A stretch of DNA of 64,000 nucleotides from an uncultured Gammaproteobacteria bacterium. Its GTDB lineage: Bacteria > Patescibacteriota > Patescibacteriia > UBA9934. The stretch covers positions 119,166 to 183,165 of the forward strand of contig CAYVLY010000002.1 of NCBI GenBank assembly GCA_964452565.1. Direction: 5' to 3'. Position 1 is the first letter of the stretch; each line of letters opens with the position of its first letter. The notes beneath the pieces are model-generated. The model did not search any database. It was not told where the DNA came from and saw only the letters and a list, made by a program, of their open reading frames with translations. The translations under genes and the position numbers were made by a program. Positions 14,701 through 57,966 of this stretch are shown one piece after another.

Positions 14701-15044
14701 CCGCCGCACTCCTCAACGCTCTGGGGCAGGTCCAAGGGTCCTTGCTCATGCGCCTTGGACTGGCGCTGCTTGTGCTGCCTCTGCTGCCTGTGGCGGTAGT
14801 TGTCGATGGGCTGCGATCGCTCATCCGCGCGCAGGCGGAATCTCGGGTGCTCTCTGCTGGAACAGCTCTCTGCCCTGCTGGGCACCGGCTGTCGCTGCAG
14901 GGCGCATATGAGTGCGAGCAATGCCGGCTTCCCTTTGAGGGGCATGGCTTTGGAGAGTGCCCACACTGTCGGCACGTGGCCCACAGCCTCCGATGTCCAT
15001 GCGGCCGAGTGGTCGTCAATCCTCTGTGGAGCCCAGAGCCGTGA
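14697..15044 (+). CDS. Small protein with an N-terminal TM helix and a C-terminal Cys-rich zinc finger
   Basis: ATGA start/stop overlap with the ATPase gene. CEQC...CPHC...CPCG cysteine cluster. Confidence 0.45.
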   Translation: MTAALLNALGQVQGSLLMRLGLALLVLPLLPVAVVVDGLRSLIRAQAESRVLSAGTALCPAGHRLSLQGAYECEQCRLPFEGHGFGECPHCRHVAHSLRCPCGRVVVNPLWSPEP

Positions 15045-15100
15045 GCAAGCTGAAGTGCCCAGCTCGGACTCGGCCCCGCCCTCCTGGCGGAACCAGGGTG

Positions 15101-17998: not shown

Positions 17999-18406
17999 AT
18001 GACTGTGCGCCAAGCCGCAGAGCACTTCCAAGTCTCCGAACGACTGCTCCGCAAGCTGCTCTCCCAAGGGCGGCTTGACGAAGCCGTCGCTCGGGTAGGC
18101 CGAGCAGTGCGGCTCCATCGGGGCCGTCTTGTGACGGCACTCACTGGACAGGAGGATGCCCATGGCCTGGCTCCAAAAGAGCAAGAGGCTCAACCCGGAC
18201 ACGGGGAAGAAGGAAATCTACTACCGAATCTGTTGGAGAGTGAACGGCAAGAAGCGTACCCGCGGCATCGGGTTCTGCGGGGTGGTGGAGGCCAAGGAGC
18301 TTCTCAAAATCTTCGAGGGCAAGCAGGCCGTCGGCGAGGAGGTGGCTCCGCCGCCGAGTTCCGAGCCTACCTCCGCGGAGCCAGCACTGGTTCCGAAGCT
18401 GGCTGA
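17999..18406 (+). CDS. xis: Excisionase/MerR-like HTH protein (Xis). 3' extent uncertain.
   Basis: MTVRQAAEHFQVSERLLRKLLSQGRLDEAVARVGRAVRLHRGRL is a typical excisionase-family HTH directly upstream of int. The ORF continues about 250 nt into int in another frame. Confidence 0.4.
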   Translation: MTVRQAAEHFQVSERLLRKLLSQGRLDEAVARVGRAVRLHRGRLVTALTGQEDAHGLAPKEQEAQPGHGEEGNLLPNLLESERQEAYPRHRVLRGGGGQGASQNLRGQAGRRRGGGSAAEFRAYLRGASTGSEAG

Positions 18407-19367
18407 CTACCTGGATGACGTGTTCCTGCCTGTTGTGCAGCGCGACAAGGCGCCCAAGACCTACGCCGGAGCCTGCCGGGCAGCCAATGCGCTCAAGCCC
18501 ATCCTTGGCCAGTTGCAGCTCGACCAGATCAACTTCGCCGCCGCCGATGCCTATGTGACCGAGCGGAAGAAGCTTGGCCGGAGGTCGAGGACCATCATCC
18601 TGGAGCTGCGCTACCTGCGCCAAGCCCTGCAGCACGCCCACGCCTGCGAAGTCATCCGCCAGGTGCCGGAGCTGCCCAGGATTGCCGACCGTGACCGTAA
18701 GCCCCACAAGTTCCTCACCGAAGAGGAGTCTGAGCGCCTGTTGGATGCCCTACGCCCCCTGGACGAGCAGCCCCACCGGGTCACCCGTGGGAGGCCACCC
18801 ATCACCAGGGACCAGCTCACCTACCTGGTGGTGCTGATGGCTCTCAACGCCGGTCTACGCAAGAGCGAGATCCTGACCCGCGGCTGGGAGGATATCCACT
18901 GGCAGCAGGGGCCTCTGGGCACCATCATCATCAGCCACAAGCCCGAGGTGGGTTTCGTGGTGAAGAAGGGGCGCGAACGGGCCATCCCGCTCACACCGAA
19001 TCTGCGCCACGCCCTGGAAGACGCCCACGAGGCTGCCGGCAGGCCGTCATCGGGCTGGATCTTCCCCTCGCCGAGGATTCCTGGCCAGCCGCGAAAGAAC
19101 TTCGCCCAAGCCCTGGCTCGGGCCTGCAGGCGAGCAGGGCTGCCGCGCATCCATCCCCACGGCCTGCGCCACACCTGGGCCACCAGGCTTGCCATGCAGG
19201 GGGTAGACCGTCGGACGCTCATGGAGCTGGGCGGCTGGAAGGAGGGCCGGATGCTTGATGAGATCTACGCCCACACCACCGACGCTCACAAGGCCGAGGT
19301 CATGGCGCGCATGGGCATCGGCCGCCATGAGAAGAGCCCCGAGGGTGAGCCGGATGATGAGGAGTAG
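18156..19367 (+). CDS. int: Phage-type tyrosine integrase
   Basis: N-terminal arm-binding-type segment (AWLQKSKRLNPDTGKKEIYYRICWRVNGKKRTRG). C-terminal catalytic HGLRHTWATRL...LGGWKEGRMLDEIYAH (R..HxxR..Y). Confidence 0.9.
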   Translation: MPMAWLQKSKRLNPDTGKKEIYYRICWRVNGKKRTRGIGFCGVVEAKELLKIFEGKQAVGEEVAPPPSSEPTSAEPALVPKLADYLDDVFLPVVQRDKAPKTYAGACRAANALKPILGQLQLDQINFAAADAYVTERKKLGRRSRTIILELRYLRQALQHAHACEVIRQVPELPRIADRDRKPHKFLTEEESERLLDALRPLDEQPHRVTRGRPPITRDQLTYLVVLMALNAGLRKSEILTRGWEDIHWQQGPLGTIIISHKPEVGFVVKKGRERAIPLTPNLRHALEDAHEAAGRPSSGWIFPSPRIPGQPRKNFAQALARACRRAGLPRIHPHGLRHTWATRLAMQGVDRRTLMELGGWKEGRMLDEIYAHTTDAHKAEVMARMGIGRHEKSPEGEPDDEE

Positions 19368-21484: not shown

Positions 21485-21760
21485 AAGTCATTATCCTTCC
21501 GGGACCGATGACAAAGGACGTGTAGAGCTTCCCCAGCACTCACACTAATTAAACCGATCCCTTGATCCTCCGAGGAGGCTCACCCTTCTTCTTTATTTCA
21601 CAGGGTGTATTTTACAACCGAAATATTCTCGTGCTCTTGAGATAACCAGAGGGGGAAAGAGAGCCATTTACATGTGGTGTATTAGGCGGCGATGCCTTTA
21701 CTTATTCCACGGTCTCGGCTACGGTGCGAGGTAGAGAATCCTCCCATAGGAGCACTTTCT

Positions 21761-23758
21761 ATGCCGAATCAGATTCGAACTCTGCCAGACGGCAAGATAT
21801 GCGATTTCATTGATGGAACTATCCGTAACGACACGCCGGAGGAATACGTTAGGCAGAATATTGAGAAACGCCTCGTCTTGGAGCTTGGGTATTCACTTGG
21901 CCAGATAGCTGTCGAATTTCCTATTCGCATCGGTAGCCGACGGGCACGGATTGACCTTGCCGTATTCCCGGAAGATGCCGCTCACACACAAGACAACGTG
22001 CATGTCATTGTTGAGTGCAAGCGAGAGTCAGTAGAGCCCACCGATCACAAGAACGGCGTTGAGCAACTCAAGTCCTACATGTCGGCTTGCCCCAACGCTG
22101 CTTGGGGGATGTGGACAAATGGCCGATACAAAGATGTGATTCGAAAGACCGTCTCTGACGGCAGCATCGAGTGGGAATCCCCGAATGATATCCCCGCCAA
22201 GGATGGGGATACAGACCGGTTGGACATGCCGTCCCGTGAAGATCTCACTAACGCAACGGACGACAACCTTCTCTTCTCTTTCAAGACATGTCACAATCAC
22301 ATCTATGTTACCGACGGGCTCCAGAAGCAACCCGCCTTCTTTGAGCTTTTAAAGGTGATCTTCTGTAAGATCCACGACGAGCGAAACGTACCTCATGCCC
22401 TTGAGTTCTACGCAACGGCCGCCGAAAAGGCGAGCAATGATGGTCGGCTGACAGTGGCGCGACGCATCGGCAGAATCTTCGATCGAGTGAAGGCGCGATA
22501 CCCAGCCATCTTTGACGGTGGAGACACAATTGCACTGGAACCACGGTCACTTGCCTATGTAGTTGGCGAGCTACACAAGTACAGCTTCCTGACTACAAAC
22601 ATCGACGTGAAAGGCAAGGCGTATGAAGAGTTAGTCGGTGCGAACTTGCGTGGAGACCGCGGAGAATTCTTCACGCCGCGCAATGTGCAGCGCATGGTTA
22701 TCGAAATGCTTGATGTACAGGTCGATGAGCGTGTTCTTGATCCCGCGTGTGGTACAGGTGGTTTCCTTGTCATTGCAATGAAATTGATAATCGATCAACT
22801 TCGAGAAAAGGCAGGATTCTATGCAGATGAGATGGTCAATCCGGCTGTCTTGCACGCCGTCGACCTGCGCGTGCGAGAGCTTGCAAGGTCTTGTTTCTTT
22901 GGTTTCGACATAAACCCCGACCTCGTCAAGGCGACCAAGATGAACATGGTCATGAACAACGATGGGTCGGGTAACATCTTCAGAGAAAACAGTTTATTGC
23001 ATCCACACCAGTGGTCTGACGGTTTCAAACAGGAACTCGCAGACGCGCTCGGGAAAAAGCCTCTTTCTCTGCGTGGGCCAGGCCACCTTGGTTATTTTGA
23101 CGTCATCGCTACGAATCCCCCTTTTGGCGCCAGACTGCCCATCAAGGACCGCGAAACATTGAGTCAATACGATCTTGGCTATGTGTGGACCGAGACGAAA
23201 ACCGGTTGGCAGAAAACACGCAAACTCCAGTCGTCCATGCCGCCTGAAGTTCTCTTTATCGAACGATGCTGGCAGTTTCTCAAACCTGGCGGCCGAATGG
23301 GCATCGTTTTGCCAGATTCCATTCTGGGCGCGCCTGGACAGCGTTTTGTTCGAGAGTGGATACTTCGCCACTGTCGGCTGATTGCCTCGGTCGATCTTCA
23401 TCCAGATACTTTTCAGCCACGCAACAGCACACACACGTCAGTTCTTGTGCTACAGCGAAAGACTGAAGATGAAATCCGTCGAGAGGAGAAACAAGGGCAG
23501 CTCAACGACTACTCGATCTTCATGGCTCAAGCGAAGGCGATTGGTCACGATAGACGAGGAAAGACTATTTATCGTCGAAATGAAGATGGGGAGATTGTGC
23601 TGGTGCCGCCCCCAGGTTCGGTTTCTACGTTGGAACGTACAGCGGACGGTTCTCCAGTCAGCCGTCCTCTACCAAGGCAGAAAATCAAGGACGATGATTG
23701 TCCTTTCATCTCTCAAGAGTTTCGTACCTGGAAGAAGACGGAGGTACTTGGCTGGTGA
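21761..23758 (+). CDS. N6-adenine DNA methyltransferase (HsdM/Type IIG-like) fused to an N-terminal HsdR-N/PD-(D/E)xK nuclease-like domain
   Basis: RBS AGGAG 9 nt upstream of ATG 21761. N-terminal YVRQNIEKRLV...IDLAVF...VIVECKR (restriction-endonuclease-fold core). FFTPRNVQRMV..LDPACGTGGFL (motif I). NPPFG (motif IV). Confidence 0.8.
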   Translation: MPNQIRTLPDGKICDFIDGTIRNDTPEEYVRQNIEKRLVLELGYSLGQIAVEFPIRIGSRRARIDLAVFPEDAAHTQDNVHVIVECKRESVEPTDHKNGVEQLKSYMSACPNAAWGMWTNGRYKDVIRKTVSDGSIEWESPNDIPAKDGDTDRLDMPSREDLTNATDDNLLFSFKTCHNHIYVTDGLQKQPAFFELLKVIFCKIHDERNVPHALEFYATAAEKASNDGRLTVARRIGRIFDRVKARYPAIFDGGDTIALEPRSLAYVVGELHKYSFLTTNIDVKGKAYEELVGANLRGDRGEFFTPRNVQRMVIEMLDVQVDERVLDPACGTGGFLVIAMKLIIDQLREKAGFYADEMVNPAVLHAVDLRVRELARSCFFGFDINPDLVKATKMNMVMNNDGSGNIFRENSLLHPHQWSDGFKQELADALGKKPLSLRGPGHLGYFDVIATNPPFGARLPIKDRETLSQYDLGYVWTETKTGWQKTRKLQSSMPPEVLFIERCWQFLKPGGRMGIVLPDSILGAPGQRFVREWILRHCRLIASVDLHPDTFQPRNSTHTSVLVLQRKTEDEIRREEKQGQLNDYSIFMAQAKAIGHDRRGKTIYRRNEDGEIVLVPPPGSVSTLERTADGSPVSRPLPRQKIKDDDCPFISQEFRTWKKTEVLGW

Positions 23759-25479
23759 GACCTCAATTTGCCCCAAACACGTCGGAGATTCCAGCAAGGC
23801 CCCGTAGGGACTCTATTGCCACAACGGTTTCACTCAAAGAAGTCGTCACCCAAGGAACACGGTTTGACGCTTCAGCGTACGACATAGAATCACGCAATAC
23901 GCTCACAACGATTGAGTCGTGTGGGCTATGTGTCCTGCCGTTGTTCGGCTCGAAAGGCCTCTGCAAGGAAGCACACAATGCCTTCCGCTTCAGGCGAGTT
24001 TTTGCTTCAGAACAAGGGCTACCGTTCCTGACCAGCGCTGACATCATCAAGATGCGACTGGACTATCGTCGTCATTTGAGTCGATCGCAGACTCCACGAG
24101 TGCGAGAGCTTCTTCTTCAGAAGTGGGATGTCTTAATTTCTTGTTCGGGAACCATTGGAAACGTCGCGCTGGCGGGTCCGGCGGTCGAAGGGTTTGCAGC
24201 GTCACAAGATATCATTCGGCTTCGTGCGACAAATAGTGACATTGCAGGTTACGTTGCGGCTTTCCTGCGTTCTCGCTATGGGAGAGGACTGATTGCGAAT
24301 GCGACCTATGGATCGGTAATAACGCACATTGAACCAGATCACCTATCCAGGATTCCCATCCCTGTACCACGTCCACACCTCATGAACGTCGTTGGCACGC
24401 AGATGAGAGAAGCCGTGCTACTGCGTGAACGAGCAAATCGGCTTCTCGATGACGCGGAAGCCGCCCTGTACGATGTTCTCGGCTTCGAGAGGCTTGATAC
24501 CCGGCACATGCGATCTACCACCATTCGCGCTCGGGAGCTCAATGGCCGCTTCGATGCCAGATACCACGAGCCAGTTGCTATTGCTGCTCTGCGGGATTTG
24601 GAGACATGCCGTTATCCGATATCGACAATTGGCGATGGCGCTGTATGTACTGAGATCCGGCAGGTCACGAGGTTTCGTAAGCGCGTATATGTTGAACGAG
24701 GTGGAATTCCTCTCCTAACAACGCGGCAGCTATTCCAGTACGACCCAGTCAAGATAAGTCACCTTGCAAAAGGCGCGCACGAAAAAGACCTCAAAGAAAT
24801 CGCGCTTGCGCCGAACATGGTAACTGTGAACTGCTCTGGTCGACTCGGCCGAGTGCAGGCAGGCACGCTCGGGCGTGTGCAGATTATCCCCAGATATATG
24901 TCGGAGTGGACTACTTCTCAACATGCACTGCGGCTTGTCGCTGCGCCTGACCTCAACGCAGGCTATCTCTATGCCTGGCTTGCCTCGGCCCACGGCCTTC
25001 GTGTCATTACGCGCCATGCATATGGCTCCGTAGTCGTTCACATTAACCGTCACATGATGGCCGAGGTTCCAATACCTCTCCCAACAAGGGAGAAGCGCAA
25101 CATGATTGGCGATCTTGTACTTCTGGCAAACCGACTGCGCGATGAAGCCTGGCGAAGGGAGCAAACTGCTATCCGGCAAGTTGAGGCTCTCATAGCCCTC
25201 CCCCCAGCTGAACATGATCCGATGGGATTTCGGATGGCTCAACTGGAGGCGGAGGCGAGTGGCGTTTATGCGCAGATAGAAAGTTCGTCTGACGAGCAAG
25301 AGGCATCCCGTCTACGCAGGAGACTTCGGCATCTACAACAAGAGCAGTCGGACCTGATGCAACAGGTCTTCTCCAGCCAGTTCTCACTTCCCCCAGAAGT
25401 TGGAGAGGATGTTATCGCCCTTGCTGACCGAGTACTGCGGGAGTATCGTGCTACTACCACCACGGCTTCAACCAAGTGA
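23698..25479 (+). CDS. hsdS: Type I restriction-modification specificity subunit (HsdS) with two target-recognition domains
   Basis: Duplicated TRD architecture with conserved SGTIGN/NCSGRLGRV-type segments and a central coiled-coil spacer. Alternative GTG start at 23755 overlaps the methyltransferase stop (GTGA). Confidence 0.75.
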   Translation: MSFHLSRVSYLEEDGGTWLVRPQFAPNTSEIPARPRRDSIATTVSLKEVVTQGTRFDASAYDIESRNTLTTIESCGLCVLPLFGSKGLCKEAHNAFRFRRVFASEQGLPFLTSADIIKMRLDYRRHLSRSQTPRVRELLLQKWDVLISCSGTIGNVALAGPAVEGFAASQDIIRLRATNSDIAGYVAAFLRSRYGRGLIANATYGSVITHIEPDHLSRIPIPVPRPHLMNVVGTQMREAVLLRERANRLLDDAEAALYDVLGFERLDTRHMRSTTIRARELNGRFDARYHEPVAIAALRDLETCRYPISTIGDGAVCTEIRQVTRFRKRVYVERGGIPLLTTRQLFQYDPVKISHLAKGAHEKDLKEIALAPNMVTVNCSGRLGRVQAGTLGRVQIIPRYMSEWTTSQHALRLVAAPDLNAGYLYAWLASAHGLRVITRHAYGSVVVHINRHMMAEVPIPLPTREKRNMIGDLVLLANRLRDEAWRREQTAIRQVEALIALPPAEHDPMGFRMAQLEAEASGVYAQIESSSDEQEASRLRRRLRHLQQEQSDLMQQVFSSQFSLPPEVGEDVIALADRVLREYRATTTTASTK

Positions 25480-28413: not shown

Positions 28414-28435
28414 GGTGTTTCAGGCCTGAAACACC
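28414..28435. repeat. Perfect 22-bp palindrome GGTGTTTCAGGCCTGAAACACC, copy 2
   Basis: Exact match. Intergenic between two minus-strand genes. Confidence 0.9.
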
Positions 28436-28588
28436 GCACGAAGAGCCCACACGCATGGACGCCGCCTCTACCTCACATACGCCTGGTGATGGCGATATTC
28501 ACGCTCTCCAGTCGCAAAAACACGCCGTCGAACCTACGCCAACGATGGCGGTGGCTACGGCGTGCACGGCGCTGCGAGCTGGCGGGAA

Positions 28589-29566: not shown

Positions 29567-30532
29567 CTACTTTTCATTGATAGATGCTCCATCATCGCAG
29601 AGCAGATCAACGACTTTTCGTAGGCCAGCCTGACCAGGGTGCAGGTAGCGGATCGTGGTCTGGATGGAGGCATGTCCAAGAAGGCGCCTGACCTCTTCAA
29701 TGCTCGCCCCGCGGTTCAAGAGCTCGGTGGCGAAGCCATGCCGCAGCATGTGAGGAGTAACGGCGAAGTTCAGGCCTGCAGCCTTCCCAAGGTCGCTGAC
29801 GTGGAGCTCGACCGTTCGCGGTGAAAGTCTACGGCGAAGCCTAGACACGAAGACCGCATTCGTAGCCAGCTTCAGCGATATTCTCTGCTCAAGCCAGGCA
29901 GCAAGAGCTGCTCGTGCTGTGCGGTTCAAGAGCACCGGCTGGGAGTTGCCGCCCTTGCGCCGGACCTCCAACAGGAGGCCCTCGTCCAGGTCCACCTGGT
30001 CGATGTCGAGGGAGAGAAGCTCATCGAGGCGCAGCCCTGTGTGGAACAGCAGCGTGACCATGCACGAGTCCCTGTGGTGTTTCAGGCCTGAAACACCCAT
30101 CGGGATGGCAGCCAGGAGCCTCTCCATATGCTCCGGCGTCACGACTGGAGGCTCTATCCGAGGAACCTTGACACGAGGGATGTCAGCCTCTGGGCTCAAC
30201 TCTATCACCTCTGTTTTTTCAAGATGTCTGAAAAAACCGCGAAGGACAGTCAGCTTGCGGTTCCGAGTGCTTGGAGAGATCGGGCCCCTGGGGCCTGGCC
30301 GGTTGAGATAGGCCACCAGGTGCTCACGGGTGACTTGCTCTGCCCTCACGACCTCCATCTTCGCGAGGGTTCGCCGAAAAAGGCATAGCTCCTGACGATA
30401 CGAGCGCAGCGTCTTTGGCGTGTACTTGCGCTCCTGTTCCGCGTGCTCCAGGAAGCCGTTGACGGTCGTCGCGAGGTCCATTCTTGAGCGTCGAGGGGTG
30501 AGGGTTTTTGGGGTGGGTGAACTGCGCCACAT
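29567..30532 (-). CDS. XerC/XerD-like tyrosine site-specific recombinase
   Basis: Box I-like TGLRLDELLSL. C-terminal HMLRHGFATELL...LLGHASIQTTIRYLH. Contains palindrome copy 3 in-frame (encoding GVSGLKHH). Confidence 0.85.
   Translation of the reverse strand: MWRSSPTPKTLTPRRSRMDLATTVNGFLEHAEQERKYTPKTLRSYRQELCLFRRTLAKMEVVRAEQVTREHLVAYLNRPGPRGPISPSTRNRKLTVLRGFFRHLEKTEVIELSPEADIPRVKVPRIEPPVVTPEHMERLLAAIPMGVSGLKHHRDSCMVTLLFHTGLRLDELLSLDIDQVDLDEGLLLEVRRKGGNSQPVLLNRTARAALAAWLEQRISLKLATNAVFVSRLRRRLSPRTVELHVSDLGKAAGLNFAVTPHMLRHGFATELLNRGASIEEVRRLLGHASIQTTIRYLHPGQAGLRKVVDLLCDDGASINEK
30076..30097. repeat. Perfect 22-bp palindrome GGTGTTTCAGGCCTGAAACACC, copy 3, inside the recombinase coding sequence
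   Basis: Exact match, embedded in codons of the 29567..30532 ORF. Confidence 0.9.
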
Positions 30533-35489: not shown

Positions 35490-35913
35490 TATTCTATGCG
35501 ATAGCCAGCTTGGCCTATTATCCCGGAATCGAACATCGACATCGAGGGGATCGTGCCCATGTCGAACCGACTGTTTGGTGCGTTTTTCTTGCTTGATAGT
35601 GAGTCTCTCTGCTTTTCATAGCAGGGCTGCGGGCAGGAAACAGATGGACCACGGTTTTTCCACCTTCAGTAACTCCAGGGACCATTGCGAGGTGTTGCAT
35701 TGAAGTGATGAAGGTATCAAGCGAGTGAATCCTCTGCAGCCCATATGCAGCCCAAAACTATGGAAAAACGACATTCTGTGGGAGAATTGATAATTAAGGA
35801 GAGAGCAGTCTTCTTTGCGAACTGTAAAGGCAAATCATGATTTCGGCGAGAGTTTGCGGAGTATCGAATCTGCCAATGATAGGGTTCGATTCCCCCGACA
35901 ATTGAAGTGAATC

Positions 35914-35937
35914 GAGTGTTCCAGGCCTGAAACACCT
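35914..35937. repeat. Near-perfect copy 4 of the palindrome (GTGTTCCAGGCCTGAAACACC, one mismatch) close to the island/host junction
   Basis: One substitution relative to the 22-mer. About 125 bp from the tRNA-Val 3' end. Confidence 0.8.
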
Positions 35938-36060: not shown

Positions 36061-36137
36061 TGGTGGGCGTGAGAGGACTCGAACCTCTGACCTTCACAAT
36101 GTCAATGTGACACTCTAACCAGCTGAGCTACACGCCC
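36061..36137 (-). tRNA. tRNA-Val (anticodon GAC)
   Basis: Manual fold of the reverse complement: acceptor GGGCGTG/CACGCCC, D-arm GCTCAGCTGGTTAGAGT, anticodon loop TTGACAT, T-arm AGAGGTTCGAGTCCTCT, discriminator A, encoded CCA. Confidence 0.9.
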
Positions 36138-36359: not shown

Positions 36360-36971
36360 TTATCGGACGAACCGACGGCGTGGTGGCTGGAATCCGAGGC
36401 TTGCAGGGACCCTCACATACAAGGCATTGCCTCTTTGGTCTACAAACTCTAGGCTCCCAATTTGGGTAAGGGCTGTGAGCAATCCCACGCTAAGCAGTCG
36501 TATTCTAATTACCGAGCTGCCGCGACTAACCATCACTTCGACTTGATCATGGCCGCGGTGATGACGCCTTGAACCAATGCTAAGATCCATGGGGCCACTG
36601 AGCGTCAGTGCGTTGCCAGCACGGCTGATTGGAAAACTGCAACCATTGCGCCCTATCTGAACACACCTGTCACTCGCGTCGTACAGAACTGCGCCCAAGT
36701 CGAACTTCCACGACTCAACATCGAATCCTGGCAAAGACACGTGTTTCAATGCAGTTGACTTGATGAGAACGCTGAGAAGTTCGCAAAACGGAATACCCGC
36801 AATGCTCATCTGAAACCCCTGCCTTTGCATTCGCATGTCAAGCTGCATCTCTACAAACTCTGGGGCTTGCCAGCTTACACTGGCACCGATGACAGTTGGG
36901 GTTGTGAAACTAAGTGGCACATCGCAGGTCGCATAGACCTGCAGCCCGGTATGGGCTCGCGCAGGTTCCAT
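36360..36971 (-). CDS. Hypothetical protein (203 aa)
   Basis: ORF in a mid-GC patch between the tRNA and the pseudouridine synthase gene. No secure motif. Confidence 0.35.
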   Translation of the reverse strand: MEPARAHTGLQVYATCDVPLSFTTPTVIGASVSWQAPEFVEMQLDMRMQRQGFQMSIAGIPFCELLSVLIKSTALKHVSLPGFDVESWKFDLGAVLYDASDRCVQIGRNGCSFPISRAGNALTLSGPMDLSIGSRRHHRGHDQVEVMVSRGSSVIRIRLLSVGLLTALTQIGSLEFVDQRGNALYVRVPASLGFQPPRRRFVR

Positions 36972-38001: not shown

Positions 38002-38598
38002 ATGACCTACAAAGAAGCATTAGATAAACTCAAACGCGCTGAGCGGCTCATCATCACTGTTGGTGGTGATATTGGTGCTGGGAAATCAACGTTTGCGAAA
38101 CATCTGGCTGAAGAGCTTGAAATCCCACGAATCTACGTTGGTCAATTTATGCGCGAGGAAGCTGCCAAACGAAAGATCACTCTTGATGAGCTTGGAAAGT
38201 TGCAAGAGAAAGACGATTCTATTGATAAGTACTTCGATGAGATGCAACGCGAACGATCGCAGCATGTTCAGAAAGCGGTTTTCGAGGGCCGCACATCATG
38301 GCACTTTGTTGAGGATCCAACCGTGAAAGTATATCTTTCAGTTGATCCGCAGGTGGCTACTGATCGAATCTGGCGCGATCGAAATGATAAGCGTGATCAA
38401 TATGGAACAAAGGAAGCGCTTCATGCAGCAAATGAAGAGCGTAAACGATCTGAGATAAAACGCTATCAGAAATACTACGGAATTGACTCATACGACATAA
38501 AAAACTACGACATAGTGATTGACACAACAGACTTGACGATAGACGAAGTGTTTGATAAAACAATTCAAGAAATCAGCAAGTCCCGTCCCACCAACTGA
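38002..38598 (+). CDS. Cytidylate kinase-like nucleoside monophosphate kinase
   Basis: P-loop IITVGGDIGAGKSTFAKHLAEEL. Overall (d)CMP-kinase-like length. Confidence 0.6.
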   Translation: MTYKEALDKLKRAERLIITVGGDIGAGKSTFAKHLAEELEIPRIYVGQFMREEAAKRKITLDELGKLQEKDDSIDKYFDEMQRERSQHVQKAVFEGRTSWHFVEDPTVKVYLSVDPQVATDRIWRDRNDKRDQYGTKEALHAANEERKRSEIKRYQKYYGIDSYDIKNYDIVIDTTDLTIDEVFDKTIQEISKSRPTN

Positions 38599-38642
38599 AA
38601 CCACCGCCCTGAGGCGGTGTTTTCTTAGACCAAGAGGAGAGC

Positions 38643-38915
38643 ATGAGAACAACGGAAATAGACCTCACCAATGACGACGGCATCAAGGCATTCGTCAACG
38701 CAAGCTACGACGATCGTACAGAGGCATGGACACAGTTCCTGCAGGGAGCACCGTCCATGGAACAGTGCGGTACGGTCCTGGCTGGACTTCGTAAGCATGG
38801 CATCGAAACTCGTCCCGGACAACCGCCACAGCTGAAGCCCTATGTCGCACACTACGTCCAGAAGCTCATGGCTGCCGAACAGCGCGGCACTGCTCCTCCC
38901 TTGGGCATTCTCTAA
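38643..38915 (+). CDS. Hypothetical protein (90 aa) in a mid-GC cassette
   Basis: RBS GAGGAG upstream of ATG 38643. Followed by direct repeat copy 1. Confidence 0.45.
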   Translation: MRTTEIDLTNDDGIKAFVNASYDDRTEAWTQFLQGAPSMEQCGTVLAGLRKHGIETRPGQPPQLKPYVAHYVQKLMAAEQRGTAPPLGIL

Positions 38916-38957
38916 CCCATCGACCACGCGCGGTCACACCCACACACTCCAGCTCTC

Positions 38958-38978
38958 GGCTGGGGTGTTCTGCTTCTC
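38958..38978 (+). repeat. Direct repeat GGCTGGGGTGTTCTGCTTCTC, copy 1 (about 35 bp of similarity including flanks)
   Basis: Recurs at 39611..39631 with similar upstream context (CACAC...GCTCT). Confidence 0.8.
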
Positions 38979-39100
38979 ACAAGTCACCGGCAGATTCAAT
39001 ATAACCACGAAATAGTTGACAAAACTTGATTTTTGTGGTAGAAAGCTTTGTCGCATGAAGCGATGCCCCAGTGGACATCCTGGGAAACAGAGAGGAGAAA

Positions 39101-39562
39101 ATGGCAAGGAAGACCAGTCCTATGGATAAGGCGGCAGCGGCCGCAGAGAAGGAGTTCGACACTATCCTGAGCGAAGGAACTCCCTCCGCAGAAGATATCA
39201 GCGAGGTCGCCCTTTGGTGGACTACCCACTTCCTCAACGCCGGGCACAAGCGACTCGGTCGCCTGATGGTGAGGGTGTCGAGCATCGGTGTCGATCGCGG
39301 CCTCAAGCCCAATGGTCATCCGGGAGACAACCCCCTCGACCAAGCAGCAGAGGCAGCAAGGGCTGCAATCAGCCAGCGCATCGAAGAGGGAGACATGCCG
39401 AACGATGGTGTGAAAGCTGTCGCTGACTGGCTCAAGAGTCACTATGGTGCCGCTGGACACAAGCGGCTCGGTCGCGTGCTCGTGCAGCACTGCTGTGACC
39501 TCCACGGCATCCAAAACCACCCGGCTATCATCCGCAGATTCATTGCTGGGCCCGAAAAATAG
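39101..39562 (+). CDS. Hypothetical protein with an internal tandem duplication
   Basis: RBS AGAGGAGAAA before ATG 39101. Two copies of W(W/L)..H(F/Y)..AGHKRLGR(L/V)(M/L)V in one polypeptide. Confidence 0.55.
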   Translation: MARKTSPMDKAAAAAEKEFDTILSEGTPSAEDISEVALWWTTHFLNAGHKRLGRLMVRVSSIGVDRGLKPNGHPGDNPLDQAAEAARAAISQRIEEGDMPNDGVKAVADWLKSHYGAAGHKRLGRVLVQHCCDLHGIQNHPAIIRRFIAGPEK

Positions 39563-39610
39563 CCTAGTGTAGAAATACGCGCACCTGGCTACAACACCAC
39601 CCTGGCTCTT

Positions 39611-39631
39611 GGCTGGGGTGTTCTGCTTCTC
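39611..39631 (+). repeat. Direct repeat GGCTGGGGTGTTCTGCTTCTC, copy 2, abutting the -35 of the rplS promoter
   Basis: Exact 21-mer match to 38958..38978. Confidence 0.8.
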
Positions 39632-39660
39632 TTGACAAATTTCGCCAATTTCACTACACT
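39632..39660 (+). promoter_or_regulatory. Sigma-70-like promoter TTGACA-17-TACACT upstream of rplS
   Basis: TTGACA at 39632..39637, a 17-nt spacer, TACACT at 39655..39660, about 70 bp before the rplS start. Confidence 0.5.
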
Positions 39661-39730
39661 TCCCCCTGTTAATCCATCTGTGAATGAAGGGGCCTCTCTT
39701 CCTCTGGCACGGTGAAGTAAAACTCAAAAT

Positions 39731-40276
39731 ATGAGTGACGAAGAAAAGAAAATAAAAGAAGAGCAGAACACAGACGAAAAAAAGCCAGTTGAGTCGGAAA
39801 CAGCTGATGCACCCACCAAAGAGGCAGCTCCAGAAGCTGAGGTTGCAGAAGAAGCAACTAAGGCACCGACTCAGGAAGAAAAAAAGCCAGAGACTGATAC
39901 ACTTCAAGAAGAGCTTCAAGCAGCTGCTGAAGAAAAAACTCCAGTTCAAGAGCTTCCAAACCGAGACATTAAACCTGGAATGCTAATCCGCGTCCATGAA
40001 CGAATCGTTGACATCTCTCCAAAGGGAGAGAAGCGAGAACGTGTGCAGGTGTTTGAAGGTATGGTCATGGGACTCAAGAGCAAGGGAGTTGCTCGAACAA
40101 TGACTGTTCGAAAGGACTCAAAAGGTTTCATGGTAGAAAAGATTTTCCCACTTTCATCTCCGAACATCGCAAAGATCGAGGTAAAGAAACAGTACCGAGT
40201 GCGTCGAGCAAAGCTCAGCCACTTGCGTGGAAAATTCAAGCGAAAGTTGAAGGAGATCAAGGAGGTTCAGAAATAA
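39731..40276 (+). CDS. rplS: 50S ribosomal protein bL19 with an acidic/Lys-rich N-terminal extension
   Basis: The C-terminal 115 aa match the L19 family (MLIRVHERIV...RVQVFEGMVMGLKSKG...VRRAKL). About 65-aa low-complexity extension. Confidence 0.85.
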   Translation: MSDEEKKIKEEQNTDEKKPVESETADAPTKEAAPEAEVAEEATKAPTQEEKKPETDTLQEELQAAAEEKTPVQELPNRDIKPGMLIRVHERIVDISPKGEKRERVQVFEGMVMGLKSKGVARTMTVRKDSKGFMVEKIFPLSSPNIAKIEVKKQYRVRRAKLSHLRGKFKRKLKEIKEVQK

Positions 40277-40278
40277 CA

Positions 40279-40323
40279 ACAGAACCCAGCCGAAGGCCCT
40301 GAGCCTATCGAAGGGAACACAGA
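40279..40323. repeat. 45-bp repeat ACAGAACCCAGCCGAAGGCCCTGAGCCT(A/G)TCGAAGGGAACACAGA, intergenic copy
   Basis: 44 of 45 identical to 57479..57523. Flanked by cagaaca-type short repeats. Confidence 0.85.
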
Positions 40324-40330
40324 TCAAAGG

Positions 40331-40352
40331 ACCGCCGCAAGGCGGTTCTTTT
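40331..40352 (+). terminator. Rho-independent terminator after rplS
   Basis: ACCGCC-gcaa-GGCGGT stem-loop followed by TCTTTT. Confidence 0.65.
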
Positions 40353-40437
40353 ATATTGACAGAAAGACATAAAACTGGTAGTCTCCAAAGTCGAAAGACT
40401 TGAGTGTGGGCATCCCGCCCGCCTCTTGGAGGGAAAC

Positions 40438-40908
40438 ATGAACAGAAAACTCGCGATGCTGGCCATCGCCTCCACCTTCCTGGCCTCCTGCGCCTTGAGC
40501 AAAGGTACCGGCCTCACCGATTGCCACGATGCACACGGCTTTGTCAGTGACACGGTCTGGATCTCAGGATCTGTCAGGCGGCCGATCAAGGTCGCCAAGA
40601 CGATCGAACAGCATGCTCACCAATTCGATCACTGCAAGAACTTCTCTGATGTGCGTGGGACCACCAGCGAACAACGTCCGGGTGTCAGGCTCATCATACG
40701 CGAAGTACCCCAAGAAATCACCGTAGAGGTGATGGTGCAGTCCAACGGCACCCCCATCGAAGGTGGTGGGCGCACGGAATACGAATCGCCCATGGAAACT
40801 TGCTATCGGGAAACCATGGAGATGATTGGCTTTCCTGCCTGCACAGGCCCGAACTACTACACGGTCATGTGGTTCCCGGATCGTGACCAGAAAACCCCCG
40901 CCCCATAG
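40438..40908 (+). CDS. Putative lipoprotein
   Basis: MNRKLAMLAIASTFLASC signal peptide with lipobox. Higher-GC gene. Confidence 0.55.
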   Translation: MNRKLAMLAIASTFLASCALSKGTGLTDCHDAHGFVSDTVWISGSVRRPIKVAKTIEQHAHQFDHCKNFSDVRGTTSEQRPGVRLIIREVPQEITVEVMVQSNGTPIEGGGRTEYESPMETCYRETMEMIGFPACTGPNYYTVMWFPDRDQKTPAP

Positions 40909-40937
40909 GCAGCAGACCGACGCGCTGTCTCGTTCGT

Positions 40938-40969
40938 CCGCCCCACCCCGGGGCGGTTTCTGATTTTTT
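40938..40969 (+). terminator. Rho-independent terminator (plus strand) between convergent genes
   Basis: CCGCCCC-acc-CCGGGGCGG then TTTCTGATTTTTT. Confidence 0.6.
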
Positions 40970-40975
40970 AAAAAC

Positions 40976-40999
40976 CCCCTGGCCACGCCAGGGATTTTT
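40976..40999 (-). terminator. Rho-independent terminator for the minus-strand gene 41021..41824
   Basis: CCCTGGC-cac-GCCAGGG with a T-run when read on the minus strand. Confidence 0.55.
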
Positions 41000-41020
41000 G
41001 TTAAATATGTCTAAATTTTT

Positions 41021-41824
41021 TTACGCTGCCAACTTTATAACTTGACTATCTACCCCTTTCTCATCACCCTCAGCACTTCGTGCACCGCCCTCATCTAATA
41101 TCTGACGCTCACCAACGATGTACAATTCATCTGAAGCATTTGGTGTCCAATGTATTGCCATTTCATGCATAGGAAGTGCGTGATCCTCACCTACATGCAC
41201 ACCCTGCTCTTCGAGAGCGCCTCTCATATCATCAACTTTGCGCTGTATACTTTCTTCACTCCAACCATATTCATATTTCTGACTCTTGACCCCCATGGTC
41301 CTTAATAGTGTCAGTTCCACAGATTCAAAATCAACATCAGCATCTTTCATAGCATCTGCAATCTTACCAGCCGAATATTCCCTGGTATCATGACCCCAAT
41401 GTCTATCATCATCTTCTTCCTTATAATTACCCCACCCGAGCCTAGAGCGTGGTGTTAAATGGACCATGATGACACGATCCTCGCCCTCCGAAGACTTACC
41501 AATACCAAATGCAACCATACATCCAGAAACTCTATTTGTTAGCAATTCATGCCCCTCTGATAAAATGACACCTGAATCAGTGGGCACAATTCCCGCCTTG
41601 CCATCTGGAACCTCGGCCATAGCAATATCCCCCATGCGGACATGGATCTTTTGACTGACCCTATCTTCCCCATCAACAATATTCGATAAATCTGCGGTCT
41701 GACGATTTTCAAATTTTTGTGTATAAAGATCTAATATCATCTTTCGTGTTAATACTGCTCCGGATGGCTCTCTTTGTTCACTATGAGCCTCCTGGCTAAT
41801 ATGATCTCTTTTTAGTTCATTCAT
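41021..41824 (-). CDS. Hypothetical protein (267 aa)
   Basis: Long low-GC ORF with host-like codon usage. No motif recognised. Confidence 0.55.
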   Translation of the reverse strand: MNELKRDHISQEAHSEQREPSGAVLTRKMILDLYTQKFENRQTADLSNIVDGEDRVSQKIHVRMGDIAMAEVPDGKAGIVPTDSGVILSEGHELLTNRVSGCMVAFGIGKSSEGEDRVIMVHLTPRSRLGWGNYKEEDDDRHWGHDTREYSAGKIADAMKDADVDFESVELTLLRTMGVKSQKYEYGWSEESIQRKVDDMRGALEEQGVHVGEDHALPMHEMAIHWTPNASDELYIVGERQILDEGGARSAEGDEKGVDSQVIKLAA

Positions 41825-41942
41825 ATAAAGACATATTATATTAAAACTCCCCTTTTGGGGAGTCTTATAGATCCTTCGACTCGGCCAGACAAGCTGACCT
41901 CGCTCAGGATGACGGCTTCTGGAATACAGCTATCCGCTACCG

Positions 41943-51008: not shown

Positions 51009-51989
51009 ATGCGAGTCCTAACTGGAATACAACCTACAAATATTCTTCATATCGGAAACCTATTTGGTGCTTTAATCCCTGCTGTTGAGCTTCAGAAAGA
51101 TCATGAGCTCTACATGATGATTGCTGACTATCATTCTATAACTGTACCGCAAAATCCTGAGATGCTGAGTGAGAGCATCCTTCTTAACGCTGCAGCCTAT
51201 ATTGCTGCTGGTATCGATCCAACCAAGACTGTACTTTTTCAGCAGTCTCAGATTCCTGCACATACTGAGCTTGCATGGATCCTTGCAAGCCAAACCCACA
51301 TGGGTGAGATGAAAAGGATGACTCAGTTTAAAGACAAGTCTGGTGATAAAGCTGATAAAGTTTCTGTTGGGCTATTTACCTATCCTGTTTTAATGGCTGC
51401 GGATATTCTGCTGTATGACACAGAGGCAGTACCTGTTGGACATGATCAAAAGCAGCATGTTGAGCTGACCCGCGACGTTGGTCAGAGGTTTAACAATGCT
51501 TATGGCGAAACGTTTGTAATTCCAAAACCAATGATTCGCAAACATGGAGCGCGACTTAAGTCTTTGACAGAGCCTGAGAAAAAGATGAGTAAGAGTGCAC
51601 CGAGTGCGAAGAGCTATATTTCATTGATGGACGACCGCGAAATTGTTCACAAGAAAATACGATCTGCCGTGACAGACTCAGGGCAATTGATTACATTTGA
51701 GGAACGGCGTGAAGGACTTTATAACCTGCTTACGATATTTAGTTTGTGCACTGGAAAGTCCGGTGAAGATCTGGCACATGAGTATGCAGAAAAAGGCATG
51801 AAGGTCCTTAAGGACGATCTTGCTGAAGCGCTTTCGAACTATCTAGATCCGATGCAGAGCAAGATGAAGGAACTACTTGAAAACAAAGATGAACTCAAAC
51901 GCATCATCGCGAACGGATCTACAGCCGCTGATAAGGTGGCGAACGCGAAGTTGGCGGAAGTGAAAAAGAAGGTGGGGGTAACGTTATAG
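51009..51989 (+). CDS. trpS: Tryptophanyl-tRNA synthetase
   Basis: HIGH-type motif (ILHIGNLFGA), KMSKS present, 326 aa class I layout. Confidence 0.9.
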   Translation: MRVLTGIQPTNILHIGNLFGALIPAVELQKDHELYMMIADYHSITVPQNPEMLSESILLNAAAYIAAGIDPTKTVLFQQSQIPAHTELAWILASQTHMGEMKRMTQFKDKSGDKADKVSVGLFTYPVLMAADILLYDTEAVPVGHDQKQHVELTRDVGQRFNNAYGETFVIPKPMIRKHGARLKSLTEPEKKMSKSAPSAKSYISLMDDREIVHKKIRSAVTDSGQLITFEERREGLYNLLTIFSLCTGKSGEDLAHEYAEKGMKVLKDDLAEALSNYLDPMQSKMKELLENKDELKRIIANGSTAADKVANAKLAEVKKKVGVTL

Positions 51990-52025
51990 CAGAAAGCAGA
52001 ACACAGAACTCAGAACGCAGATCAA

Positions 52026-52049
52026 GAACCGCCAAACGGCGGTTCTCTT
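52026..52049 (+). terminator. Rho-independent terminator after trpS
   Basis: GAACCGCC-aaac-GGCGGTTC followed by TCTT. Confidence 0.5.
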
Positions 52050-52433
52050 AAATACACGCCTAAGTCCCAAGCCAATTTTCTAGTCTCGACCTCAGGCCTG
52101 CCACGAGCACGTTCATGCTTATCCCCGGGCAGAAAGATGGAATAGCATTTTGATGTCCAGTTTCTCCTTAGATAAAAATTGGATCTCCAAAATGCCCGTC
52201 TGTATGCCTGGGGTATGCATGGACAGCGCAGTGAGGCCAAGCAGTTTCTTTTCCCCATTTCTTTGCTGCTTCAAAGAAATGGGGCCAGGGGTTAGGGGCA
52301 GGATGCCCCATCAATGGGGTTGACTTTCTTGGCCAATCCTGCTATATTCTCTCCGTCAAGTGCATCCTGCGCCTCTGACGCTGAGACAGCCCTCCTAAGC
52401 TGAAACTGAAAAACACATGGAGTGAAACCACAC

Positions 52434-56787: not shown

Positions 56788-57966
56788 ATGCATTTGGCGA
56801 TCGACATAAGGCATTTAGCAGCTGATCAACACTCAGGCATAGGACGTTACACGATCGAAATAATAAAGCGCATGACAAAGATGGCGCCAGATGATTATTT
56901 TACACTTTTTGCAGCAGGATCTTCAGAAACACTTGCGAAACTCCCAAAATTCTCTGGAAGAAATATAGAACTTATCAAAGAAGAAACGCCAAATAGAGCA
57001 CTTTCCGCAAAGCTTCACTTCACAGCCCACACACTTGAAGACTTCTTACCAAAGCAACCTGATCTTTGGTTTTTCCCAAACATCAATATCATCAAAACAC
57101 ACAGGCCATACGTGATAACAATGCATGACCTTTCTTTTGAGCTCTTCCCTAGATTCTTCAGGATAAAAGATCGCATCTGGCACAGGGCTGCAGCACCTCA
57201 ATCACTAGCAGAACACGCGGAGCTAATCTTTGCGGTTTCGGAAAATACAAAGCATAACCTTAGTGCCCTCTGGGGCATTGGTGAGGATAGCATTGTATCT
57301 ACCCCGCTTGGAGTTGACGATCGTTTTGAAACCAAGGAGCAACCATGCGACAAGAATTATCTGCAATCGCACAGTATTGATTATCCGTATATTTTAAGCC
57401 TTTGCACGCTTGAACCGCGCAAGAACATTGAAACCATTGTAGAAGCATACGAAATTTGGCGGGAACAGAACACAGAACACAGAACCCAGCCGAAGGCCCT
57501 GAGCCTGTCGAAGGGAACACAGAACACAGAACCCCACTTAGTTATTGCTGGAGGTCGCGGGTGGAAGAATGATTACCTTCACAAACGTATTCGATCCTCA
57601 AGGTACTCATCAGACATTCATGTTCTGGGGTATATTAAGGAAAATCACAAACCAACACTATATAGACACGCAGAGCTATTCTTGTTCCCATCGTTTTTTG
57701 AAGGATTTGGTCTGCCAATTGTTGAAGCTATGGCAAGTGGGACCCAGGTGATTACAAGTTTTACTGGATCTATGCAGGAGGTCGGCAAAGAGCATGTGAT
57801 CTTCGTGGATCCATACAACGTACACGACCTGGTGCATGCTATCGATGTTGGTTTAAAAACAGATCACAACCTTGGACCACATATCCCATCTATTTTCTCC
57901 TGGAACGCTGCCGCAATGCGTACACTGATGTCGATCAAGGCATTGGAAAAAGAGGCTGTAGAGTAA
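56788..57966 (+). CDS. Family 4 glycosyltransferase carrying an in-frame 45-bp repeat insertion
   Basis: FEGFGLPIVEAMASGTQVITS GT4 motif. Residues EQNTEHRTQPKALSLSKGTQNTEP are encoded by the repeat at 57479..57523. Confidence 0.85.
   Translation: MHLAIDIRHLAADQHSGIGRYTIEIIKRMTKMAPDDYFTLFAAGSSETLAKLPKFSGRNIELIKEETPNRALSAKLHFTAHTLEDFLPKQPDLWFFPNINIIKTHRPYVITMHDLSFELFPRFFRIKDRIWHRAAAPQSLAEHAELIFAVSENTKHNLSALWGIGEDSIVSTPLGVDDRFETKEQPCDKNYLQSHSIDYPYILSLCTLEPRKNIETIVEAYEIWREQNTEHRTQPKALSLSKGTQNTEPHLVIAGGRGWKNDYLHKRIRSSRYSSDIHVLGYIKENHKPTLYRHAELFLFPSFFEGFGLPIVEAMASGTQVITSFTGSMQEVGKEHVIFVDPYNVHDLVHAIDVGLKTDHNLGPHIPSIFSWNAAAMRTLMSIKALEKEAVE
57479..57523. repeat. 45-bp repeat (copy of 40279..40323) embedded in-frame in the glycosyltransferase coding sequence
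   Basis: 44 of 45 identical. Flanked on both sides by GGGAACA(GAACA)CAGAACACAGAACCC short tandem repeats. Confidence 0.85.

What the first reader, a model, noticed from the sequence alone, without database searches (positions are those of the whole stretch)
38643..39660. Two mid-GC small-gene cassettes, each followed by the same about 35-bp direct repeat placed just upstream of a -35 box
Repeats GGCTGGGGTGTTCTGCTTCTC at 38958 and 39611 follow the genes 38643..38915 and 39101..39562 (the latter encodes a protein with an internal AGHKRLGR tandem duplication). Each lies 20-40 bp upstream of a TTGACA element (39016 and 39632). This looks like duplicated cassette boundaries, or a repeated regulator or UP-element site. 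GC (about 57%) is above the host background, so the cassettes may be acquired.
Basis: seen in the sequence. Interest (0 to 1): 0.5.

Follow-up and report, generated by a model that had tools for sequence, protein, structure and literature searches.

The report
Duplicated terminator hairpin behind two acquired genes
Two small foreign-looking genes wedged between the cmk and ribosomal-protein-L19 genes of a small-genome (Uhrbacteria-like) bacterium each end in the same 34-base RNA hairpin, which most likely just stops transcription, so this is an ordinary gene-end signal present twice rather than a promoter element.

Summary
The repeat is real. It is 34 nt (38945-38978 and 39598-39631), 30/34 identical, with an exact 21-mer found only twice in the window (0.01 expected). 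Each copy starts 28-35 nt after a stop codon. Each folds on the + strand into a 10-11 bp G+C-rich hairpin followed by a pyrimidine tail. The three stem differences all keep pairing through G-U, on the + strand only. A covariance model built from the two copies finds only generic terminators elsewhere. I read them as intrinsic-terminator-type 3' hairpins. Two relatives show that everything between the cmk stop and the rplS -35 box (38599-39631) is lineage-specific: one relative has nothing there, the other has a different insert ending in a different hairpin. The "acquired cassettes" idea is therefore supported. The UP-element or regulator idea is not: the repeat is 62% G+C and lies 0 and 37 nt from the two TTGACA boxes. 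No integron integrase or attC features were found. Gene 2 is a tandem member of a large unannotated "WW..AGHKRLGR" small-protein family; gene 1 is an ORFan. The reverse complement of the 21-mer resembles a genome-specific CAGAAC repeat family, and this is unexplained. Overall the feature is ordinary and of low to moderate interest.

The parts
38002..38598 (+). cmk (cytidylate kinase). Conserved left flank of the insertion site.
   Evidence: Pfam Cytidylate_kin2 1.5e-18. 77% and 71% identical orthologues in L005 and L006.
38602..38619 (+). Hairpin CACCGCCCTGAGGCGGTG followed by TTTTCTT. Terminator-like element directly after cmk, of the genome's stereotyped ACCGCC-N4-GGCGGT type.
   Evidence: Terminator scan. 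Read from the sequence.
38643..38915 (+). Gene 1: 90-aa ORFan, 56% G+C, Shine-Dalgarno AGAGGAGA at 38633-38640.
   Evidence: No homologue among 5.8 billion proteins apart from itself. No Pfam, NCBIfam, PHROG or PADLOC hit. Single-sequence AF2 model is helical, pLDDT 66. Weak similarity to the C-terminal unit of gene 2: BLASTP E=0.001, 0/500 shuffles. It does not match the family profile.
38945..38978 (+). Repeat copy 1 (W1). The fold starts the stem one base upstream of the repeat: 5' arm 38944-38954, loop 38955-57, 3' arm 38958-68. Tail UCUGCUUCUC.
   Evidence: RNA fold -17.3 kcal/mol, z -4.4, 0/200 shuffles.
39016..39044 (+). Promoter-like site for gene 2: TTGACA, 17 nt, TAGAAA with TG one base upstream.
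   Evidence: Read from the sequence. Not called by the consensus scan because the -10 lacks the final T. Not conserved anywhere.
39101..39562 (+). Gene 2: 153 aa (or 146 aa from Met8 at 39122), 59.5% G+C. Tandem of two ~60-aa three-helix units carrying W(W)..AGHKRLGR.
   Evidence: family of at least 1554 clusters, no Pfam. AF2 pLDDT 77, pTM 0.73, 2 x 3 helices.
39598..39631 (+). Repeat copy 2 (W2). Stem 39598-39607 / 39611-39620, loop 39608-10, tail UUCUGCUUCUC. It ends exactly at the -35 box of rplS.
   Evidence: Fold -15.4 kcal/mol, z -3.1. Listed as terminator-like.
39632..39660 (+). rplS promoter TTGACA-17-TACACT. Conservation with the relatives begins here.
   Evidence: Best promoter match in the scan, 10/12. 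Conserved in L005 and L006.
39661..39730 (+). Conserved rplS 5' leader. Not part of the repeat; it defines the right-hand backbone.
38599..39631 (+). The whole lineage-specific insertion (1033 bp) between the cmk stop and the rplS -35 box.
   Evidence: Synteny with L005 and L006. No DNA or protein match in 55 related cmk loci, phages or plasmids.

Best explanation
The 34-nt repeat is the 3'-end RNA hairpin of each of two small accessory genes: an intrinsic, Rho-independent-type terminator or at least a 3' stabilising stem-loop. On the + strand transcript it forms a 10-11 bp G+C-rich stem with a 3-nt loop, followed by a pyrimidine-rich tail. Copy 1 ends the gene-1 transcript before gene 2's own weak promoter. 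Copy 2 ends the gene-2 transcript and shields the essential rplS promoter, whose -35 box starts at the very next base. Both genes sit in a 1033-bp insertion that is specific to this lineage, at a site (cmk | rplS) that holds different DNA in different relatives. The two hairpins are copies of one another made by local duplication. Gene 1 may be a decayed copy of the C-terminal unit of gene 2 together with its 3' end. Shown: the repeat, the hairpin, the strand-specific pairing, the position after stop codons, and that the region is an insertion. Inferred: actual termination, and the duplication history.
For: The repeat is non-random and sharply bounded. The hairpins are stable relative to shuffles on the + strand (-17.3 and -15.4 kcal/mol, z -4.4 and -3.1) and weaker on the - strand (-13.3 and -10.5). 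All 10 shared pairs hold in both copies. The 3 stem differences are transitions in the 5' arm opposite G or U (C-G/U-G, C-G/U-G, A-U/G-U), so pairing survives only in + strand RNA (alignment). A G/U-rich 3' arm tolerates transitions in its partner but not in itself, which explains why the 3' half is exact and the 5' half varies. The hairpins start 28 and 35 nt after the stop codons. Copy 2 is called terminator-like by the scan. A covariance model built from the two copies finds, as next-best hits, ordinary terminators at gene ends in the window, L005 and L006, at 12-17 bits. In L005 the different insert at the same site also ends in a hairpin plus a CTTCTTGC tail abutting TTGACA. Another terminator pair in this genome, rplS 40320-40349 and 52012-52046, shares about 37 nt of sequence, so sequence-related terminators are a habit of this genome. 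Gene 1 resembles the C-terminal unit of gene 2 at BLASTP E=0.001.
Against: The U-tract is poor: UUCUGCUUCUC has 6 U in 11 and is interrupted. Copy 1 was not called by the scan. There are only two sequences, so there are no double compensatory changes. If the hairpin were duplicated together with a gene, the contrast is uncomfortable: 88% identity in the hairpin and 11/11 in the tail, against no detectable DNA similarity in the coding regions or the rest of the 3' UTRs. Gene 1 does not match the gene-2 family profile. The reverse complement of the exact 21-mer resembles a dispersed CAGAAC repeat family of the host backbone, which hints at a different origin. No transcript data are available.
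Confidence: 0.6

Rival explanations
1. The element is an inverted-orientation member of a genome-specific family of short dispersed repeats built around CAGAAC(A) heptads and a CCCAGCCGA core. It spread by whatever mechanism spreads that family and only secondarily serves as a terminator. This is compatible with the best explanation for function but differs on origin.
For: The composite CAGAAC-N0-4-CCAGCC occurs 4 times in the window (W1-, W2-, 40280+, 57480+) against 0.00 expected. Local alignment of W1rc against the 57455-57545 element exceeded all 2000 shuffles; against 40270-40350, 11/2000 shuffles scored as high; against the 51985-52050 3' UTR, 3/2000. The heptad arrays and the 55-nt element are listed. 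The matching part is exactly the invariant 21-mer.
Against: The shared stretch is only about 18-20 nt and includes a 3-nt indel. The 55-nt element does not fold like the repeat. All other family members are on the + strand, and only W1 and W2 are on the - strand. The family is not seen in L005 or L006. The comparison was post hoc.
Confidence: 0.2
2. The element is a DNA-level recombination site, an att-like core. On this view a 653-bp circular module (promoter, gene 2 and hairpin) integrated by site-specific recombination into the hairpin behind gene 1, leaving an exact 21-bp core at both junctions. This resembles integron attC sites or Xer-dependent dif modules.
For: The exact 21-bp core has diverged left arms; the 4 differences all fall in the first 13 of 34 positions (my calculation: 715/46376 = 0.015). 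The boundaries are sharp. The right copy sits exactly at the junction with conserved backbone. The site is a variable hotspot. Two tyrosine recombinases lie in the window.
Against: Neither recombinase reaches the integron-integrase cut-offs: 102 and 32 bits against 265. Both lie 8-20 kb away inside a separate high-G+C island. The element is 34 nt with a 3-nt loop, has no GTTRRRY/RYYYAAC boxes and no 11-6-11 dif architecture (read from the sequence). The left-arm differences are exactly the ones that preserve RNA pairing, which an att site does not require. No third copy or empty-site variant was found.
Confidence: 0.08
3. The element is a repeated operator or UP-like element that regulates the two downstream promoters.
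For: Both copies lie upstream of a TTGACA. The hairpin is also an imperfect DNA palindrome.
Against: It is 62% G+C, whereas UP elements are A/T-rich (own knowledge). Spacing to the -35 box is 0 vs 37 nt. The first promoter is weak and unconserved. The region upstream of the rplS -35 differs entirely in L005 and L006 while the promoter itself is conserved. The palindrome is imperfect in DNA (G-T positions) and good only as RNA.
Confidence: 0.03

Closest known systems
Intrinsic (Rho-independent) transcription terminators
   Same: A G+C-rich stem-loop 28-35 nt after a stop codon on the sense strand, followed by a pyrimidine/U-rich tail. Pairing is preserved by G-U-compatible substitutions. A model of the element cross-detects other terminators.
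   Different: The U-tract is short and interrupted. The two copies are near-identical in sequence, which function alone does not require.
Minimal mobile elements of Neisseria (defined in PMC3082526, citing Snyder et al. [quoted passage not shown]
   Same: cmk and rplS are conserved flanks. The window, L005 and L006 carry two genes, a different insert, and nothing, respectively.
   Different: The relatives compared are different species-level lineages (cmk 71-77% identical), not strains. Homologous recombination was not shown. There is no evidence here for transformation.
Phage 'morons' (promoter-gene-terminator units inserted between conserved genes; own knowledge)
   Same: Gene 2 has a promoter-like site upstream and a terminator-like hairpin downstream. 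Its G+C differs from its surroundings.
   Different: It is not in a prophage. There are no phage hits by sequence or fold. The promoter is weak and untested.
Integron gene cassettes with attC sites
   Same: Small ORFs each followed by a similar imperfect inverted repeat. The array sits in front of a conserved junction.
   Different: No IntI. The element is too short and lacks the R/L boxes. Gene 2 has its own promoter. There are only two units.
Repeat-derived terminators (REP/BIME, Neisseria Correia elements and DUS pairs, Rickettsia palindromic elements; own knowledge)
   Same: Possible kinship with a genome-specific dispersed repeat, one member of which lies in-frame inside a coding gene.
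   Different: The kinship rests on about 20 nt. No transposase, target duplication or wide dispersal was shown.

Membership tests
Intrinsic terminator | Stable G+C-rich stem-loop on the sense strand shortly after the stop codon | tested here: met
   -17.3 and -15.4 kcal/mol, z -4.4 and -3.1. Starts 28 and 35 nt after the stops.
Intrinsic terminator | Run of U immediately 3' of the stem | tested here: inconclusive
   The tail UUCUGCUUCUC has 6 U in 11 and is interrupted. Copy 2 passes the scan criterion and copy 1 does not.
Intrinsic terminator | Transcripts actually end there | not testable with these tools
   Needs Term-seq, 3' RACE or in vitro transcription.
Integron cassette / attC | Integron integrase (IntI) adjacent | tested here: not met
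   The two tyrosine recombinases score 102 and 32 bits against TIGR02249 (cut-off 265). The best match is Xer-like. They lie 8-20 kb away.
Integron cassette / attC | attC of 57-141 bp with R''/L''-L'/R' boxes and a GTTRRRY core | tested here: not met
   The element is 34 nt. GTTCTGC does not fit GTTRRRY, and there is no RYYYAAC (read from the sequence).
UP element | A/T-rich tract at -40 to -60 at a fixed distance from the -35 box | tested here: not met
   62% G+C. Ends 0 and 37 nt from the TTGACA boxes.
Minimal mobile element | Two conserved flanking genes with different cassettes between them in different genomes | tested here: met
   cmk and rplS flanks. Three different states in the window, L005 and L006.
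Minimal mobile element | Incorporation by homologous recombination in the flanks | not testable with these tools
   Would need population data or transformation experiments.
Xer/dif-type module (IMEX, pdif) | 28-bp site: two 11-bp recombinase arms around a 6-8 bp centre | tested here: not met
   The arms are 10 bp around a 3-nt centre, and there is no dif-like ATAA/TTAT arms (read from the sequence; consensus from own knowledge).
WW..AGHKRLGR small-protein family (unnamed) | ~60-aa unit MDxAAxxAExEL..VAxWWxxxYxxAGHKRLGRxLV | tested here: met
   Gene 2 carries two units. The profile search found 567 representatives at E<=1e-3 and 1554 clusters at E<=1e-5. Gene 1 does not match.

The most novel reading that the evidence does not exclude
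The 34-nt element is the junction site of a cassette-capture process in a CPR bacterium. On this reading, small promoter-gene-terminator modules are inserted at, and end up bounded by, copies of a genome-specific repeat of the CAGAAC/CCCAGCC family. This would be functionally analogous to attC or pdif sites but unrelated to them in sequence, and it would make terminator hairpins the docking points for foreign genes in streamlined genomes.
Probability: 0.07. Interest if true: 0.7.

Novelty: new member of a known kind. Interest (0 to 1): 0.24.

Why it matters
As it stands, it matters little. It is a tidy example of how a streamlined CPR genome accommodates foreign genes in front of an essential ribosomal-protein promoter: each newcomer carries a terminator, and the last one abuts the -35 box. 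It also shows that a repeat seen just upstream of a -35 box can simply be the end of the previous transcription unit. It would matter more if the element proved to be a recombination site or a member of a mobile repeat family, because mechanisms of gene gain in Patescibacteria are poorly known. Islands and horizontal transfer in them are documented in PMC12455944. The side findings may be more useful than the repeat itself: an unannotated, widespread small-protein domain, and a 35-kb high-G+C mobile island in a 44% G+C genome.

Tried and rejected
- Genome-wide and public searches for the 21-mer. GTDB species genomes gave one hit, inside a Rhodoferax methyltransferase CDS with no flank similarity, which I take as chance. 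IMG/VR gave none. The source genome itself is not in the searchable genome set, so a true genome-wide count was not possible.
- Rfam found nothing for the repeat or the leader at gathering threshold or at E<=5.
- The whole 3' UTRs or the 5' regions of the two cassettes being homologous: not significant.
- Homology of the L005 hairpin to the repeat. The stems share 6/8 positions, with compensatory-looking changes. However, the covariance-model score (16 bits) is no better than for unrelated terminators, so this is left open.
- Diversity-generating retroelement template/variable repeats: the mismatches are not adenine-specific.
- Integron, Xer/dif and UP-element readings: see the membership tests.
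- Phage or plasmid origin of the insert: no tblastn, blastn, PHROG or BFVD match.
- Extending beyond the window with two more look-ups failed, because the proteins are not on record.
- Literature: no paper mentions GHKRLGR or the SRA runs.

Full report
**What is there.** The reported repeat exists as described. The repeat finder gives a 34-nt direct repeat, 38945-38978 and 39598-39631, 30/34 identical. The exact 21-mer GGCTGGGGTGTTCTGCTTCTC occurs only at 38958 and 39611 even when 3 mismatches are allowed, against 0.01 expected. Similarity stops abruptly on both sides. The rest of the two 3' UTRs, the sequences downstream, the 5' regions and the coding DNA show nothing above shuffled controls. 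The same arrangement, base for base, is present in two independent Logan assemblies.

**Anatomy of the element.**
- On the + strand each copy folds into a hairpin of 10-11 bp with a 3-nt loop.
- The energies are -17.3 and -15.4 kcal/mol, z = -4.4 and -3.1 against dinucleotide shuffles. The - strand versions are weaker, at -13.3 and -10.5.
- The stem is followed by UUCUGCUUCUC.
- The hairpins begin 28 and 35 nt after the stop codons of ORFs 38643-38915 and 39101-39562.
- The four differences between the copies are all transitions. One is in the loop and three are in the 5' arm, each opposite a G or U of the 3' arm (U-G/C-G, C-G/U-G, A-U/G-U). All 10 shared pairs are therefore kept in both copies, but only as RNA of the + strand.
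A G/U-rich arm tolerates transitions in its partner, not in itself.
- A covariance model built from the two copies finds no third copy in the window or in the two closest relatives. Its next-best hits, at 12-17 bits, are ordinary terminators at gene ends. Copy 2 is itself listed by the terminator scan.

**Context.** The organism is a small-genome CPR bacterium. Its RNase J falls in a 90%-identity cluster named Candidatus Uhrbacteria, and a T4SS_pilin protein is present. The conserved genes here are 42-47% G+C. The gene order is rluD, cmk (38002-38598), gene 1, gene 2, rplS (39731-40276), two more ORFs, then uvrA. Two relatives were recovered through cmk.
- In L006 (cmk 71% identical), the cmk stop codon TAA is directly followed by TTGACA of the rplS promoter, and rplS is followed at once by uvrA.
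- In L005 (cmk 77% identical), a different 563-bp insert with unrelated ORFs sits between cmk and rplS. It ends in a different hairpin, CCCCGGC-N7-GCCGGGG, plus CTTCTTGC, again abutting TTGACA.
- Conservation with the window (about 92% identity to L005) begins exactly at TTGACA 39632. It runs through the -10 box TACACT and a structured leader into rplS.

Window 38599-39631 is therefore a lineage-specific insertion, and copy 2 of the repeat is its last element. None of 55 related cmk loci, the phage set or the plasmid set contains the insert DNA, a homologue of gene 1, or a close homologue of gene 2.

**The genes.**
- Gene 2 (59.5% G+C) is a real gene. It is a tandem of two ~60-aa units with the signature W(W)..AGHKRLGR.
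- A profile of the units finds 567 representatives at E<=1e-3 among 1.84 billion proteins and 1554 clusters at E<=1e-5 in the larger set. Most are single-unit proteins of 55-75 aa from metagenomes, all 'hypothetical', with no Pfam, NCBIfam, PHROG or PADLOC model.
- Tandem forms also exist in other lineages, so the internal duplication is old and not local.
- AF2 predicts two three-helix bundles (pLDDT 77). Fold searches give nothing usable.
- Longer relatives such as P0002 sit in a 59% G+C contig beside PbeA-like helicase, MzaB-like ATPase, GmrSD_N and ZacB/DrmC-like genes. This hints at defence-island company, nothing more.
- Gene 1 (56% G+C) is an ORFan with a good Shine-Dalgarno sequence and a helical single-sequence model. 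It resembles the C-terminal unit of gene 2 weakly (E=0.001) but not the family profile.

**Interpretation.** The simplest reading is that the repeat is the terminator, or at least the 3' stem-loop, of each gene.
- Copy 1 separates gene 1 from gene 2's own weak promoter-like site (TTGACA 39016, 17 nt, TAGAAA with an upstream TG).
- Copy 2 stops transcription just before the rplS promoter.
- The UP-element or operator idea fails on composition (62% G+C), on spacing (0 vs 37 nt) and on the lack of conservation upstream of the rplS -35 box.
- The integron idea fails because there is no IntI and no attC anatomy.
- The 'acquired cassette' idea holds. The site behaves like a Neisseria minimal mobile element as defined in PMC3082526, although the mechanism is untested.

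**What remains unexplained.** It is not clear why two terminators are 88% identical while everything else between the cassettes has no similarity.
- *Local duplication with selection on pairing* is my preferred answer. It is helped by the weak paralogy between gene 1 and gene 2, and by another sequence-related terminator pair in the same genome (rplS 40320-40349 and 52012-52046).
- *A dispersed-repeat origin* is the main alternative. The reverse complement of the exact 21-mer (GAGAAGCAGAACACCCCAGCC) resembles a genome-specific family. That family comprises CAGAACA heptad arrays and a 55-nt element present after rplS (40279-40333) and, in frame, inside a glycosyltransferase gene (57479-57533). 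The composite CAGAAC-N0-4-CCAGCC occurs four times against none expected. The match is short, the folds differ and the comparison was post hoc, so I give this origin about 0.2.
- *A recombination-site reading* is not excluded (about 0.08). It has no positive support beyond the exact core and the sharp boundaries.

**Verdict.** It is a new member of a known kind, with interest about 0.24.

Noticed in passing
window 1-35000 (edge near tRNA-Val 36061-36137): A block of at least 35 kb with 52-65% G+C lies next to a 42-47% G+C backbone. It carries two Replic_Relax proteins (3999-4862, 14957-16006), two tyrosine recombinases (18156-19367; 29567-30532, Xer-like), an N6_Mtase/HSDR_N fusion with an S-subunit-like gene (21692-25479) and a Mutator transposase remnant. 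It looks like integrated mobile element(s) of foreign origin in a CPR genome. The junction is confirmed by an independent 27.8-kb Logan contig.
   Followed up: partly
window 880-904, 28414-28438, 30073-30097, 35913-35937: The perfect 22-bp palindrome GGTGTTTCAGGCCTGAAACACC occurs four times inside the high-G+C block with no flank homology. The last copy is about 125 nt from tRNA-Val, and one pair is 35 kb apart. It could be a recombinase or regulator site, or an island boundary marker.
   Followed up: partly
window 40279-40333 and 57479-57533; heptads at 46550, 51989-52021, 57465-57532, 62047, 39764: A 55-nt repeat (93% identical) is flanked by CAGAACA heptads. One copy lies in the rplS 3' UTR. 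The other is translated in frame (EQNTEHRTQPKALSLSKGTQNTEP) inside a GT4 glycosyltransferase, where Pfam alignment shows about 16 extra residues. All copies are on the + strand, and the repeat is absent from L005 and L006. It is reminiscent of in-frame palindromic-element insertions.
   Followed up: partly
window 39661-39730; L005 7181-7249; L006 6622-6686: The rplS 5' leader is conserved in three genomes and has a predicted stem with 2-3 compensatory pairs. It may be an L19 autoregulatory leader. There is no Rfam match.
   Followed up: partly
window 39101-39562 and proteins P0005-P0267: An unannotated, widespread small-protein domain (~60 aa, MDxAA..VAxWWxxxYxxAGHKRLGRxLV) has at least 1554 clusters and no Pfam, NCBIfam or PHROG model. 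Long forms carry a C-terminal domain and sit beside defence-like genes: PbeA-, MzaB-, GmrSD- and ZacB/DrmC-like.
   Followed up: partly
window 38602-38619, 40329-40349, 52025-52046: The backbone terminators are stereotyped (ACCGCC-N4-GGCGGT followed by TCTTTT). The rplS terminator and that of the class-I tRNA-synthetase gene (51009-51989) share about 37 nt including the upstream CAGATCAA (only 1 of 2000 shuffles scored as high). Terminator tails often abut a TTGACA, for example at 40356.
   Followed up: partly
window 40277-41940; L005 7802-9175; L006 7110-7146: The rplS-uvrA interval is a second variable site. The window has a 160-aa ORF (40426-40908, 57% G+C) and a 267-aa ORF (41021-41824, - strand), both without family hits. 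L005 has a Ser_hydrolase gene. L006 has nothing.
   Followed up: partly
window 36360-36971 (-); L005 4129-4740 (-): A 203-aa ORF is conserved between the window and L005, with no family hit and 52% G+C. It lies between the tRNA genes and rluD. L005 and L006 have tRNA-Ile(TAT) beside tRNA-Val(GAC), whereas the window has only tRNA-Val, so this tRNA region is rearranged between relatives.
   Followed up: no
window 39731-39960: L19 carries an acidic, low-complexity N-terminal extension of about 75 aa (E/K/A/T-rich). Its length varies among relatives: total protein length is 181, 183 and 140 aa.
   Followed up: no
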